From assembly GCA_965218085.1 (NCBI GenBank), contig CBDCKF010000001.1, forward strand, positions 619,983-683,982: a stretch of 64,000 nt of DNA. The letters run 5' to 3'. This DNA comes from Terriglobia bacterium (GTDB lineage: Bacteria > Acidobacteriota > Terriglobia > 20CM-2-55-15). Every line of letters starts with the position of its first letter. Position 1 is the stretch's first letter. The translations under genes were made by a program, and so were the position numbers. Below, in pieces: positions 44,988 to 46,292 of this stretch. The notes under the pieces are model-generated. The model was not told where the DNA came from, made no database searches, and was given only the letters and a program-made list of their open reading frames with translations.

Positions 44988-46292
44988 GTGTTGGGGTTCA
45001 AGATGATCGACGCATTCGTCTGCGAGAACCCTCAGGATTACCTAAACCTGCTCGACCGCGAACAGGATCGGTCTCAACGCATTTTCGGTTCAAACACCAT
45101 GCCACGACTCGAACGTTTGCCACAGATTGCTCGTAACAGGCTCCGGACTTTTCCGGCGCAGGTTAATGACACGACTCCGTTTCTGCCGCCCGAGGCACCG
45201 CTCGCGGAAAGTCGCCTTGCGATTGTAACGACAGCCGGCTTGCACCGACGCAGCGACCGGCCATTCGGTCCACGTGAACAGACCTATCGCGTCATCCCAT
45301 CGCAAACGCCTGTCTCGGAAATCGTTCAGAGCCACACGAGCATAGGATTTGACCGCGTGCCGATCATTCGCGATCTCAACGTCACCTTCCCTATCGACCG
45401 CGTGCGGGAACTCGTATCCTGCGGCGAAGTCGGATCGCTTGCCCGAAACTGCTACTCGTTCATGGGTGCGCTTCGCGAGGTCTCACGTATCCAGGGCGAG
45501 TCCGGACCGGAAGTTGCGGAATGCCTTCGTGCCGAGAAGGTTGGCGTTGCACTGATCACCCCTACCTGACCGGCCTGCACGCACACAGGTGGTGTGCTGG
45601 CCCGGACGCTGGAACAGCAAGGCATCACGACAGTTTCTATCAGCATGGTTCGCGAGCACACCGAGAAGGTGAAGCCGCCGCGTGCGCTCTGGGTGCCCTT
45701 CCCGTTTGGTCATGCTCTGGGCCGTCCGAACGACGCGGAACTTCAGCACCGCGTCTTGAAGGCCGCTCTCGATCTGCTTGGAGAACCGACCGGGCCCGTC
45801 CTCCGTGACTTCCCCGATACTGCAGAAAGCGGAGACCAGCCGAGCGAGCCGGTGCAAGCATCTGCTGTCGCTCCCCCGGATGCATTGTTTGATGATCCGG
45901 CGATGGAGGTGACACAGATGCGCCAGTACCATACGCAGTGGCTGGCCGAGAATGTCGGCCGCACGGCAGTCGGGCTCAGCGGCATCCCGACTGTGGGGTT
46001 CCGTGGCATCGTGCGCTTCCTGGAAAAGTTCGCCGAAGGTGCGAATGCTGACATGTCCGAACGCCCACCCGAGATGCCGTTGCCGAATTTCATTCGCTAC
46101 TGCTCAGACGATCTGAAAGCGCTCTTTTTCGAAGGGCGCATGGTGATGACGAAGAACGCCGGTGGAGATGAAATCGCCCAGTGGTTCTGGGGAGAGACCG
46201 CGACCGGCCAGCTCTTGAGACTCGTCCACGCTCAGCTCGACGCTTCCGACAATCCTCAGTCGAAGGCCGCCGCCTTCGGCATCGTGCGGTAA
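44988..46292 (+). CDS. Candidate selenoprotein of unknown family. A single reading frame is interrupted by an in-frame TGA at 45567-45569, giving a T-U-P-A-C (UxxC) motif.
   Basis: ORFs 44988-45569 and 45594-46292 share one frame and are separated only by TGA + 8 sense codons. A stem-loop GCACAC-AGGTG-GTGTGC starts 12 nt after the TGA. Confidence 0.45.
45581..45597 (+). promoter_or_regulatory. SECIS-like hairpin (6-bp stem, AGGUG apical loop) 12 nt downstream of the in-frame UGA
   Basis: GCACAC/GTGTGC stem. Loop G and U lie at +21 to +23 from the UGA, as in bacterial SECIS elements. Confidence 0.4.

What the first reader, a model, noticed from the sequence alone, without database searches (positions are those of the whole stretch)
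44988..46292. Candidate selenoprotein 1: one reading frame split only by TGA, giving T-U-P-A-C (UxxC), with a SECIS-like hairpin 12 nt downstream
ORFs 44988-45569 and 45594-46292 are in the same frame (the offset is a multiple of 3) and are separated by TGA plus eight sense codons (PACTHTGG), which suggests a single ~434-aa protein with the TGA read through. Three residues after the TGA is Cys, forming the classic redox U-x-x-C arrangement. Immediately downstream is a stem-loop GCACAC-AGGUG-GUGUGC whose apical G/U sit at +21 to +23, matching bacterial SECIS geometry. I could not place the family with confidence. A GrdB/PrdB-like assignment was considered and is not supported.
Basis: partly seen in the sequence, partly recalled or inferred. 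Interest (0 to 1): 0.75.

Follow-up and report, generated by a model that had tools for sequence, protein, structure and literature searches.

The report
PrdB-like selenoprotein gene with SECIS
This is a real selenocysteine-encoding gene of the already known "PrdB-like" (GrdB/PrdB) family, which gene callers split in two at its UGA codon; it is a solid but ordinary example, and the enzyme's actual substrate is still unknown.

Summary
44988-46292 (+) is one reading frame interrupted only by TGA at 45567-45569, followed by P-A-C. The selenoprotein reading is strongly supported.

- **TGA conserved:** 155 of 160 related loci, from several phyla, have an in-frame stop at this codon (TGA wherever the codon was read); 5 have Cys codons. 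Full-length database homologues read TPT-C-PxC-THT.
- **Hairpin is a SECIS:** the core stem (45582-45586 / 45592-45596) pairs in all 150 TGA forms first checked but in none of 5 Cys forms.
- **RNA-level selection:** one pair covaries A-U/G-C with no mismatch. Rare synonymous codons that keep the stem are fixed: GTG 149/149, GGT 94/94, AGT 21/21.
- **No recoding:** TGA is the ordinary stop for 11 of 24 confident genes in the window.

The protein passes Pfam GRDB and hits NCBIfam PrdB at 1e-40. Environmental "PrdB" UxxC selenoproteins have been described since 2005.

It is not a true D-proline reductase. The score is below the equivalog cutoff, no PrdA partner is present, and it carries an extra helical C-terminal domain.

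The next gene (DUF3179) is a second UxxC selenoprotein candidate. The Sec machinery is not in the window and could not be tested.

The parts
44988..46292 (+). Full reading frame of the PrdB-like selenoprotein gene at its maximum extent. Candidate starts are GTG 44988, ATG 45003 and ATG 45099, with the last the most likely from homology. The stop is TAA 46290-46292.
   Evidence: Searches give the frame and translation. Searches show that most homologues start at the MPRL... segment, which corresponds to ATG 45099. Public assemblies annotate it as two ORFs of 193 and 232 aa.
45567..45569 (+). In-frame UGA, the predicted selenocysteine codon (Sec157 or Sec189 depending on the start).
   Evidence: An in-frame stop at the same aligned codon occurs in 155 of 160 related loci (TGA in the 149 read by the motif scan), and TGC/TGT in 5. 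Full-length database homologues have Cys there. TGA is otherwise an ordinary stop in this window.
45576..45578 (+). TGC, the conserved Cys of the U-P-x-C motif and the presumed resolving cysteine.
   Evidence: C192 is invariant in alignment A4. This codon is TGC or TGT in all 149 TGA forms and all 7 Cys forms.
45577..45601 (+). SECIS-like hairpin. The outer pairs are 45577:45601 and 45578:45600. The closing pair is G45581:C45597. The core stem is 45582-45586 with 45592-45596. The apical loop is 45587-45591 (AGGUG), and the G at 45588 was invariant in the 75-sequence alignment A3. In this genome only, a lower stem (45570-45575 with about 45599-45605) extends it.
   Evidence: The core was 100% paired in 75 of 75 and 150 of 150 TGA forms, against 2-4 of 5 pairs in Cys forms. 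Pair 19:27 is A-U 118, G-C 30, G-U 1, with about 4 independent concordant switches. Synonymous codons are fixed to keep the pairing.
45180..45782 (+). PrdB/GrdB-homologous alpha/beta domain (residues 60-260 in the 429-aa numbering). It carries the U-P-A-C at the junction of a beta-strand and a helix.
   Evidence: NCBIfam TIGR04483 PrdB matches residues 60-260 to profile positions 20-219 of 238, at E = 1e-40. Pfam GRDB matches residues 56-188. In the AF2 model of Cys homologue P0001 (pLDDT 92), the CPxC lies between strand 150-154 and helix 158-173.
45783..46289 (+). Subfamily-specific C-terminal region, mostly alpha-helical, absent from PrdB and GrdB and with no Pfam family.
46391..47302 (+). 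Adjacent context gene: a DUF3179 protein with its own in-frame UGA at 46616-46618 (F-U-V-I-C) and a hairpin at 46633-46651. It is a second candidate selenoprotein and indirect evidence that the host decodes Sec.
   Evidence: the Pfam DUF3179 score rises from 36.8 to 60.4 bits and the match spans the TGA when U is replaced by C; all ten homologues that span the site have Cys at that column, and the closest relatives are called as fragments starting just after it. One search shows the 8-bp hairpin 14 nt after the UGA. PMC13188914 lists DUF3179 as a predicted UxxC/T selenoprotein family.

Best explanation
The locus is one gene for a 397-429 aa selenoprotein of the GrdB/PrdB superfamily, belonging to a stand-alone 'PrdB-like' subfamily.

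During translation, the UGA at 45567-45569 is read as selenocysteine. An mRNA hairpin lies inside the coding sequence, with its stem starting 11-12 nt after the UGA (45577-45601) and a conserved G in its loop. This is the geometry of a bacterial SECIS element, which in known systems recruits SelB carrying Sec-tRNA(Sec) to the ribosome.

The product has Sec-Pro-Ala-Cys at the N-terminal end of a helix in a Rossmann-like alpha/beta domain. By analogy with PrdB and GrdB, the selenolate is the catalytic nucleophile. After turnover it forms a selenenylsulfide with the Cys three residues downstream, and this is re-reduced by a thiol or other electron donor.

Shown computationally:
- a single translated frame
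- a Sec/Cys pair at the aligned column
- a SECIS hairpin under RNA-level selection
- membership of the GrdB/PrdB superfamily
- no PrdA-type partner nearby

Inferred only:
- actual Sec insertion in this organism
- the catalytic cycle
- the substrate, which is unknown and probably not D-proline
For: - **Frame and motif:**
- **Family:** Pfam GRDB is above its gathering score. NCBIfam PrdB matches at 1e-40 over residues 60-260.
- **Sec/Cys signature:** full-length homologues read TPT-C-PxC-THT. The closest relatives are split, with N-terminal fragments ending at ...TPT and C-terminal fragments starting just after.
- **Codon at this position in related loci:** 74 of 80 species genomes scored TGA directly. 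Over both scans, 149 loci are TGA and 5 are Cys codons. The six loci the regex missed also have an in-frame stop there.
- **The 8 codons between the TGA and the next possible start** (P-x-C-T-H-...) are among the most conserved in the protein, so they are translated.
- **SECIS core stem:** paired in 150 of 150 TGA forms against 2-4 of 5 pairs in 5 Cys forms. Mean hairpin energy is -11.1 against -4.9 kcal/mol.
- **Covarying pair 19:27:** A-U 118, G-C 30, G-U 1 and no mismatch in TGA forms, with about 4 independent switches. It is an A.C mismatch in 6 of 7 Cys forms.
- **Synonymous constraint:** GTG 149/149 (background 0.48), GGT 94/94 (background 0.095), AGT 21/21 (background 0.086), and AGC or GGC in 30 of 31 when the partner base is G.
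- **No code reassignment:** TGA terminates 11 of 24 confident genes, and only this gene and its neighbour have an internal TGA.
- **Second candidate 98 nt downstream:** DUF3179 shows the same signature.
- **Literature:** 'Proline reductase PrdB', UXXC, is a known abundant environmental selenoprotein family (PMC1088965; PMC2398784).
- **Structure:** in the model, the Cys equivalent to Sec sits at the N-cap of a helix, as in CxxC redox proteins. There is weak local similarity to the glutaredoxin active site 'PtCPyC'.
Against: - No tRNA-Sec is in the window, and no selA, selB or selD is among the larger ORFs scanned. The host's ability to decode Sec is therefore inferred, not shown.
- There are no protein-level data.
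- The single-sequence hairpin energy is not significant against shuffles (marginal).
- No Rfam SECIS family matches.
- The Cys-form control group is small (5-7 genes), and the sequences are phylogenetically related, so the binomial P-values are overstated.
- The function is not established. There is no conserved operon partner, no solved homologue, and the score is below the PrdB equivalog and TIGR01918 subfamily cutoffs.
Confidence: 0.88

Rival explanations
1. It is a bona fide D-proline reductase PrdB subunit working with a pyruvoyl-PrdA partner in Stickland-type proline reduction.
For: The best NCBIfam hit is TIGR04483 PrdB (1e-40). JGI annotates homologues as 'D-proline reductase (dithiol) PrdB'. 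The UxxC motif matches PrdB.
Against: - The score of 139.6 bits is far below the equivalog cutoff of 300.
- The protein is 397-429 aa with an extra ~170-aa helical C-terminal domain, whereas PrdB is about 240 aa.
- No PrdA/GrdE-type, PrdC or PrdH gene is in the window ORFs scanned, nor among the 25 most frequent Pfam families of 259 immediate neighbours in related loci.
- The hosts are mostly aerobic soil or marine lineages: Terriglobia, Rokubacteria, SAR202, actinomycetes.
- Natural Cys forms exist, whereas PrdB U151C is inactive (PMC11229817).
Confidence: 0.03
2. The TGA is a genuine stop. The locus is two separate genes or a nonsense-mutated pseudogene, which is how current gene callers annotate it.
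For: Public assemblies call two ORFs of 193 and 232 aa. A GTG start exists at 45594. Same-frame ORF pairs split by a TGA are common by chance in this window (67 cases).
Against: - The same stop is kept at the same codon in 155 of 160 loci across phyla. A pseudogene would not be conserved this way.
- The 8 codons between the TGA and the GTG include an invariant Cys and are highly conserved at the protein level.
- Cys forms are contiguous single proteins.
- A hairpin under synonymous-site selection accompanies the TGA only.
Confidence: 0.03
3. The gene is a relic. The family is a selenoprotein family, but this particular host has lost the Sec machinery, so here the UGA terminates translation.
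For: No sel genes or tRNA-Sec are in the 64-kb window. The rest of the genome could not be searched.
Against: - The hairpin is fully intact in this genome, with 5 of 5 core pairs, the G-C closing pair and an extended lower stem.
- Both halves of the ORF are intact.
- The neighbouring DUF3179 gene also keeps an in-frame TGA with a strong hairpin.
- Two intact Sec genes side by side would not be expected to persist after loss of the trait.
Confidence: 0.04
4. UGA is recoded to a standard amino acid (Trp, Gly or Cys) through a variant genetic code or general read-through, not to Sec.
For: None specific. An in-frame TGA could in principle reflect code 4 or code 25.
Against: TGA is the commonest ordinary stop among 24 confident genes in the window, and none of the other 22 has an internal TGA. 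The aligned residue in homologues is Cys in a CxxC redox motif. A position-specific hairpin accompanies the codon.
Confidence: 0.01

Closest known systems
Environmental 'Proline reductase PrdB' selenoprotein family of Zhang, Fomenko & Gladyshev 2005 (Sargasso Sea) and Zhang & Gladyshev 2008 (GOS)
   Same: It has the same Pfam family (PF07355) and the same UxxC Sec motif. Sec forms greatly outnumber Cys forms: 42:1 in the Sargasso Sea and 235:110 in GOS, against 155:5 in the loci fetched here. It is found in aerobic environmental bacteria rather than clostridia.
   Different: I could not align those published sequences directly. The loci examined here are mainly soil and subsurface Terriglobia and Rokubacteria, and SAR202/Dehalococcoidia. 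The papers file the family under proline reductase, whereas the evidence here argues that it is a stand-alone paralogous subfamily with an extra C-terminal domain.
D-proline reductase subunit PrdB (Clostridium sticklandii / Clostridioides difficile; NCBIfam TIGR04483)
   Same: The alpha/beta domain is homologous (E = 1e-40 over about 200 residues). By alignment coordinates, Sec falls at about the position of PrdB's catalytic Sec (U151 in C. difficile), within a U-x-x-C motif. The likely chemistry is also shared: a selenolate nucleophile, then a Se-S bond with the nearby Cys, then re-reduction (PMC11229817).
   Different: The score is below the equivalog cutoff. There is no PrdA, PrdC or PrdH. 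The protein is 150-190 aa longer, with a helical C-terminal domain and a short N-terminal extension. Natural Cys variants exist. The hosts are different and the genomic context is not conserved.
Glycine/sarcosine/betaine reductase protein B selenosubunits GrdB, GrdF and GrdH (TIGR01917/TIGR01918, NF040794/5)
   Same: It belongs to the same superfamily. The match runs over residues ~100-260 to the C-terminal ~160 residues of GrdB/F/H, at E = 1e-9 to 1e-13.
   Different: It lacks the N-terminal ~250 residues of GrdB. No GrdA, GrdE or GrdC neighbours are found. The score is below all family cutoffs.
Bacterial SECIS elements such as E. coli fdhF (from established knowledge: the minimal upper stem-loop lies 11 nt 3' of the UGA, and loop G/U residues contact SelB; the bSECISearch consensus of Zhang & Gladyshev 2005)
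   Same: It is a hairpin inside the coding region immediately after the UGA. The spacer is 11-12 nt, the stem is 5-7 bp, the loop is 3-5 nt, and the second loop position was G in every sequence of alignment A3.
   Different: The sequence is unrelated to fdhF, and no bulged U is evident. There is no Rfam model match. SelB binding has not been tested.
Thioredoxin/glutaredoxin-type CxxC redox centres
   Same: The redox residue sits at the N-cap of a helix after a beta-strand. There is local sequence similarity to the glutaredoxin active site 'kPtCPyC' (E about 0.2, not significant).

Membership tests
Bacterial selenoprotein gene (UGA-Sec with SECIS) | The in-frame UGA aligns with Cys in homologues, and the protein is conserved on both sides | tested here: met
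   Searches show Cys in the full-length homologues. Searches show an in-frame stop at this codon in 155 of 160 loci (TGA in the 149 read by the motif scan).
Bacterial selenoprotein gene (UGA-Sec with SECIS) | A stem-loop immediately 3' of the UGA at the canonical distance, conserved as RNA | tested here: met
   The stem starts 11-12 nt after the UGA. It is 100% paired in the TGA forms first checked, with covariation and synonymous-codon constraint, and is disrupted in Cys forms.
Bacterial selenoprotein gene (UGA-Sec with SECIS) | The host genome encodes selA, selB, selC (tRNA-Sec) and selD | not testable with these tools
   None is found in the 64-kb window. Indirect support comes from a second TGA/Cys-pair gene next door.
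Bacterial selenoprotein gene (UGA-Sec with SECIS) | Selenium is actually incorporated at the UGA position | not testable with these tools
   This needs 75Se labelling or mass spectrometry.
GrdB/PrdB superfamily (Pfam PF07355 GRDB) | Score above the Pfam gathering threshold | tested here: met
   25.5 bits against 22. The match covers residues 56-188 and ends at the last profile position, next to the Sec codon.
GrdB/PrdB superfamily (NCBIfam TIGR01918 'various_sel_PB' subfamily) | Score above the curated cutoff of 65.45 bits | tested here: not met
   39.8 bits.
D-proline reductase PrdB (TIGR04483 equivalog) | Score above the curated equivalog cutoff of 300 bits | tested here: not met
   139.6 bits, E = 1.1e-40.
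D-proline reductase PrdB (TIGR04483 equivalog) | Co-encoded pyruvoyl proprotein PrdA, usually with PrdC, PrdD, PrdE and PrdH | tested here: not met
   No such gene is in the window ORFs scanned. None is among the most frequent neighbour families in 137 upstream and 122 downstream ORFs, nor in five annotated loci.
D-proline reductase PrdB (TIGR04483 equivalog) | A single-domain subunit of about 26 kDa (~240 aa) | tested here: not met
   The protein is 397-429 aa, with a conserved helical C-terminal domain of about 170 aa beyond the PrdB homology.
D-proline reductase PrdB (TIGR04483 equivalog) | Sec in a U-x-x-C motif at the homologous position | tested here: met
   U-P-A-C. By alignment coordinates, residue 189 maps to about profile position 149, near the catalytic Sec of PrdB (U151 in C. 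difficile). The residue-level alignment was not displayed.
Glycine reductase GrdB | The full-length ~430-aa architecture including the N-terminal half, with GrdA and GrdE partners | tested here: not met
   Only profile positions ~260-420 are matched. No GrdA or GrdE is found nearby.

The most novel reading that the evidence does not exclude
The most novel reading not excluded is this. The widespread, overwhelmingly Sec-containing subfamily (a PrdB-like alpha/beta domain plus a unique helical C-terminal domain, with no pyruvoyl partner) may not be a proline reductase at all. It may be an uncharacterised stand-alone selenoenzyme of aerobic soil and ocean bacteria.

It could be, for example, a selenol-dependent reductase that cleaves a C-N or C-X bond, or reduces an intermediate, in the catabolism of aromatic or recalcitrant organics. 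Three leads point this way:
- The three Cys-form loci examined sit in catabolic clusters: two with catechol/hydroxyquinol-type (beta-ketoadipate pathway) genes, and one with aromatic hydroxylase, VOC/glyoxalase and amidohydrolase genes.
- Some homologues are fused to muconolactone isomerase or to TauD.
- L001 has a neighbouring intradiol dioxygenase.

In this genome it may also work together with the adjacent DUF3179 UxxC selenoprotein as a two-selenoprotein redox pair.
Probability: 0.2. Interest if true: 0.55.

Novelty: new member of a known kind. Interest (0 to 1): 0.25.

Why it matters
There are three practical points.

1. This is a clean, well-controlled example of a bacterial selenoprotein gene that public assemblies annotate as two unrelated ORFs (193 and 232 aa). 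The downstream half carries no Pfam annotation at all, because the GRDB match ends at the Sec codon. The same mis-annotation affected almost all of the 160 related loci examined.

2. The family is among the most abundant environmental selenoprotein families. It is routinely labelled 'D-proline reductase', yet the evidence here argues that the label is wrong. There is no PrdA, the score is below the equivalog cutoff, the protein has an extra domain, and the hosts are aerobes. Its real substrate is an open question.

3. The very strong synonymous-codon constraint gives a compact, family-specific SECIS signature: GGU or AGU instead of the preferred GGC or AGC, and an invariant GUG. This signature could be used to annotate the family automatically.

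None of this is conceptually new for selenoprotein specialists.

Tried and rejected
- **Single-sequence folding of the hairpin:** not significant against shuffles (z = -0.08; z = -1.86). Single-sequence energy was dropped as evidence in favour of comparative tests.
- **Rfam:** neither gathering nor E-value mode over 45400-46800 gave a SECIS family hit.
- **PDB sequence search with the family profile:** no GrdB or PrdB structure, only insignificant glutaredoxin active-site similarity.
- **Structure prediction of the window protein itself with U replaced by C:** The 51%-identical Cys homologue P0001 was modelled instead.
- **Search for a conserved operon partner:** window neighbours were BLASTed against 80 loci, all ORFs were clustered, and immediate neighbours were scanned against Pfam. 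No universal partner emerged. The commonest neighbours (Zn-ADH 25/137, GNAT 11/122, glyoxalase 10/122) are lineage-restricted.
- **Upstream ORFs as remnants of the intradiol dioxygenase next to the gene in L001:** no tblastn match.
- **DUF3179 adjacency in other loci:** found only in this genome.
- **tRNA-Sec or sel genes:** none in the window or in any fetched locus.
- **ISME J 2016 paper (PMC5029168):** it does not mention Acidobacteria or Chloroflexi, so it gave nothing on the Sec trait in those phyla.
- **P0055 look-up:** failed because the protein is not on record.
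Full report
**Observation**

ORFs 44988-45569 and 45594-46292 share one + frame. They are separated only by TGA (45567-45569) and eight sense codons, P-A-C-T-H-T-G-G. The frame ends at TAA 46290-46292. The motif is Sec-Pro-Ala-Cys (TGA CCG GCC TGC). The hairpin GCACAC-AGGUG-GUGUGC lies at 45581-45597, and its stem starts at the 12th nt after the UGA.

None of this is significant taken alone. 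The window has 67 places where one TGA separates two same-frame open stretches of at least 60 codons. The hairpin's folding energy is no better than that of shuffled sequence (z = -0.08; z = -1.86 for a tighter 41-nt window). The case rests on comparative evidence.

**Family**

With U replaced by C, the protein passes the Pfam GRDB (PF07355) gathering score: 25.5 against 22 bits, residues 56-188. It matches NCBIfam PrdB TIGR04483 at E = 1.1e-40 over residues 60-260. It also matches GrdF, GrdH and GrdB at 1e-9 to 1e-13.

The scores are nevertheless below the PrdB equivalog cutoff (139.6 against 300) and below the TIGR01918 subfamily cutoff (39.8 against 65.45). The last ~170 residues match no family.

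**Sec/Cys signature**

A search of 5.8 billion proteins returned two populations:
- full-length proteins of about 394 aa
- fragments of about 237 aa covering only the C-terminal 54% of the query

In the alignment, every full-length homologue reads TPT-C-PxC-THT, with Cys at the TGA-aligned column. The closest relatives (60-70% identical) are split exactly there: N-terminal fragments end in ...TPT, and C-terminal fragments start a few residues later.

At the DNA level the picture is as follows:
- A scan of one genome per species gave 80 loci. Of these, 74 scored TGA at this codon directly and one (Streptomyces) has TGC.
- A metagenome scan seeded with a Cys-form alignment still gave 76 TGA forms and 4 Cys forms.
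- The six loci that my regex missed also have an in-frame stop at the same column.

The hosts include Terriglobia (best hit, 74% identity), Rokubacteria/Methylomirabilota, Dehalococcoidia/SAR202, Entotheonella and some actinomycetes.

The eight codons between the TGA and the next possible start include an invariant Cys. They are among the best-conserved in the protein, so they are translated.

**SECIS**

I aligned the TGA and the 48 nt after it from 75 TGA forms (A3). The alignment is gapless and in codon register.
- A 5-bp core stem (columns 16-20 with 26-30, window 45582-45586 / 45592-45596) was paired in every one of these sequences. Two outer pairs were kept in about 95%.
- Pair 19:27 switches between A-U and G-C. 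In 149 TGA forms it is A-U 118, G-C 30 and G-U 1, and never a mismatch.
- Parsimony on a protein tree built without this region gives about 4 independent, concordant switches at each column.
- Six of 7 Cys forms have an A.C mismatch at that pair. The 5 Cys forms first examined keep only 2-4 of the 5 core pairs, with mean hairpin energy of -4.9 against -11.1 kcal/mol.

The strongest evidence comes from synonymous sites in the 3' arm:

| Position | Observed | Background in the same genes |
|---|---|---|
| Val codon, cols 28-30 | GTG in 149/149 | 48% |
| Preceding codon when column 19 is A (Gly) | GGT in 94/94 | 9.5% |
| Preceding codon when column 19 is A (Ser) | AGT in 21/21 | 8.6% |
| Preceding codon when column 19 is G | AGC or GGC in 30/31 | - |

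The P-values ignore shared ancestry, but the sequences are only 47-74% identical at the protein level. The hairpin is therefore selected as RNA and travels with the UGA.

Its geometry matches what is established for bacterial SECIS elements (fdhF-type; my own knowledge, not tested here). The spacer is 11-12 nt, the stem is short, and the loop is 3-5 nt with a conserved G. No Rfam family matches, which is not unexpected for such short elements.

**Alternative codes and pseudogene**

TGA is the commonest ordinary stop among 24 confident genes in the window (11 TGA, 7 TAG, 6 TAA). Only this gene and its neighbour contain an internal TGA. That excludes a reassigned code. Conservation of the stop across phyla excludes a nonsense pseudogene.

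**Sec machinery**

The window has only tRNA-Val. Pfam scans of its larger ORFs found no selA, selB or selD.

Indirect support comes from the next gene, 98 nt downstream (46391-47302, DUF3179), which has its own in-frame TGA at 46616-46618 (F-U-V-I-C).
- Replacing U by C raises the Pfam score from 36.8 to 60.4 bits, and the match then spans the TGA.
- An 8-bp hairpin starts 14 nt after that UGA.
- All ten homologues that span the site have Cys at that column. The closest relatives are again called as fragments starting just after it.
- DUF3179 is listed as a predicted UxxC/T selenoprotein family in a 2026 review (PMC13188914).

Two intact Sec-type genes side by side argue that the host decodes Sec.

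**What the protein is and is not**

An AlphaFold2 model was made of the Cys homologue P0001, which is 51% identical (pLDDT 92, pTM 0.92). It shows a Rossmann-like alpha/beta domain. The Cys that corresponds to Sec sits between strand 150-154 and helix 158-173, and the second Cys is in the first helical turn. This is the classic placement of a CxxC redox centre. An all-helical C-terminal domain follows.

In genuine D-proline reductase, PrdB's Sec attacks the alpha-carbon of D-proline bound to the pyruvoyl group of PrdA. PrdC regenerates the enzyme, and the U151C variant is inactive (PMC11229817).

Here no PrdA/GrdE, PrdC, PrdH, GrdA or thioredoxin gene was found:
- not in the window
- not among the most frequent Pfam families of 137 upstream and 122 downstream neighbour ORFs
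- not in five annotated loci

Natural Cys forms also exist. I therefore place the gene in the GrdB/PrdB superfamily but not as a PrdB equivalog. The most likely mechanism is a selenolate nucleophile with a resolving Cys, giving a Se-S cycle that is re-reduced by a cellular thiol system. This is an inference by homology. The substrate is unknown.

**A functional lead, not a conclusion**

- Three Cys-form loci lie in catabolic clusters. Two (L162, L163) carry beta-ketoadipate-type genes: intradiol dioxygenase, Fe-ADH (the maleylacetate-reductase family) and LysR regulators, plus muconate cycloisomerase and dienelactone hydrolase in L163, and thiolase with CoA-transferase in L162. The third (L161) carries VOC/glyoxalase, an FAD aromatic hydroxylase, an acyl-CoA-dehydrogenase-like gene and an amidohydrolase.
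- Some homologues are fused to muconolactone isomerase or to TauD.
- L001 has a divergent intradiol dioxygenase upstream.
- The window itself has cupin, amidohydrolase, HpcH/HpaI aldolase and aldehyde dehydrogenase genes nearby.

Contexts of TGA forms are otherwise heterogeneous.

**Novelty**

'Proline reductase PrdB' with a UXXC motif was reported as the third most abundant selenoprotein family in the Sargasso Sea, with 42 Sec forms and 1 Cys form (PMC1088965). It was again abundant in the GOS data, with 235 Sec and 110 Cys forms (PMC2398784).

This gene is therefore a new member of a known kind, probably from an Acidobacteriota (Terriglobia-like) genome. That placement is an inference from the best hit and from the Acidobacteria-typical 1107-aa CarboxypepD_reg/OMP protein.

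The source assemblies annotate it as two ORFs.

**Verdict**

The selenoprotein-plus-SECIS interpretation is well supported. The rejection of the GrdB/PrdB family is wrong. The finding is real but ordinary for the field, with a modest open question about the true function of this mislabelled subfamily.

Noticed in passing
window 46391-47302 (+); TGA at 46616-46618; hairpin 46633-46651: The gene immediately downstream (DUF3179) is a second candidate selenoprotein, reading F-U-V-I-C. All ten homologues that span the site have Cys at that column, and the closest relatives are called as fragments starting right after it. An 8-bp hairpin (CGGGGUCA-GUU-UGACCCCG) begins 14 nt after the UGA. The adjacency to the PrdB-like gene occurs only in this genome among about 165 loci. 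No + strand terminator lies between the two genes.
   Followed up: yes
window ~47250-47302: The last ~17 residues of the DUF3179 protein (…PLHITNRRTTEVSRGR*) do not match the conserved C-terminus of its homologues (…PLQLFTRWYGFSxTFPxxEIFG). This suggests a frameshift or a real C-terminal truncation. The same sequence is present in independent assemblies (P0121 is 100% identical).
   Followed up: partly
window 45003-45566 against Pfam PF07355; L166 and L167 gene calls: The Pfam GRDB match ends at the last profile position (347 of 347), next to the Sec codon, and C-terminal fragments of this family carry no Pfam annotation at all. Public assemblies split both selenoprotein genes, into 193+232 aa and 75+227 aa. 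This is a systematic annotation artefact for the family.
   Followed up: partly
L161, L162, L163 (Cys-form loci); P0023/P0088 and P0077 (fusions); L001:5171-5824: Cys-form homologues sit in catabolic clusters. L162 and L163 have intradiol dioxygenase, Fe-ADH and LysR regulators, with MR_MLE cycloisomerase and dienelactone hydrolase in L163 and thiolase plus CoA-transferase in L162. L161 has VOC/glyoxalase, an FAD aromatic hydroxylase and an amidohydrolase. Some family members are fused to muconolactone isomerase (PF02426) or TauD (PF02668). The window's closest relative, L001, has a divergent intradiol dioxygenase upstream.
   Followed up: partly
window 23459-25390 (-): A group II intron: Rfam group-II-D1D4-3 RNA at 25212-25390 (-) and a reverse transcriptase/maturase ORF at 23459-24733 (-).
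   Followed up: no
window 34786-38399: Repeated DNA. 35718-36017 is 100% identical to 37489-37788, with a third copy at 69% identity at 36636-36935. 36328-36613 is 81% identical to 38114-38399. There are also 70-nt inverted repeats at 34786-34855. The ORFs there (35723-36901 and 37494-38477) have no Pfam hit, so this may be a duplicated gene or a mobile element.
   Followed up: partly
window 47679-57607: A run of catabolic-type genes lies downstream: cupin/AraC-binding (47679-48275, -), amidohydrolase (48351-49643, -), HpcH/HpaI aldolase (52926-53693), aldehyde dehydrogenase (53733-55256), MBL-fold hydrolase (55858-56898) and HbpS-like (57116-57607). A second HbpS-like gene is at 30404-31015, and further MBL-fold genes are at 26232-27428 and 58737-59504.
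   Followed up: no
window 39825-43148 (-): A 1107-aa CarboxypepD_reg plus outer-membrane beta-barrel protein (PF13620 + PF25183). This architecture is typical of Acidobacteriota and agrees with the best PrdB-like hit being a Terriglobia MAG.
   Followed up: no
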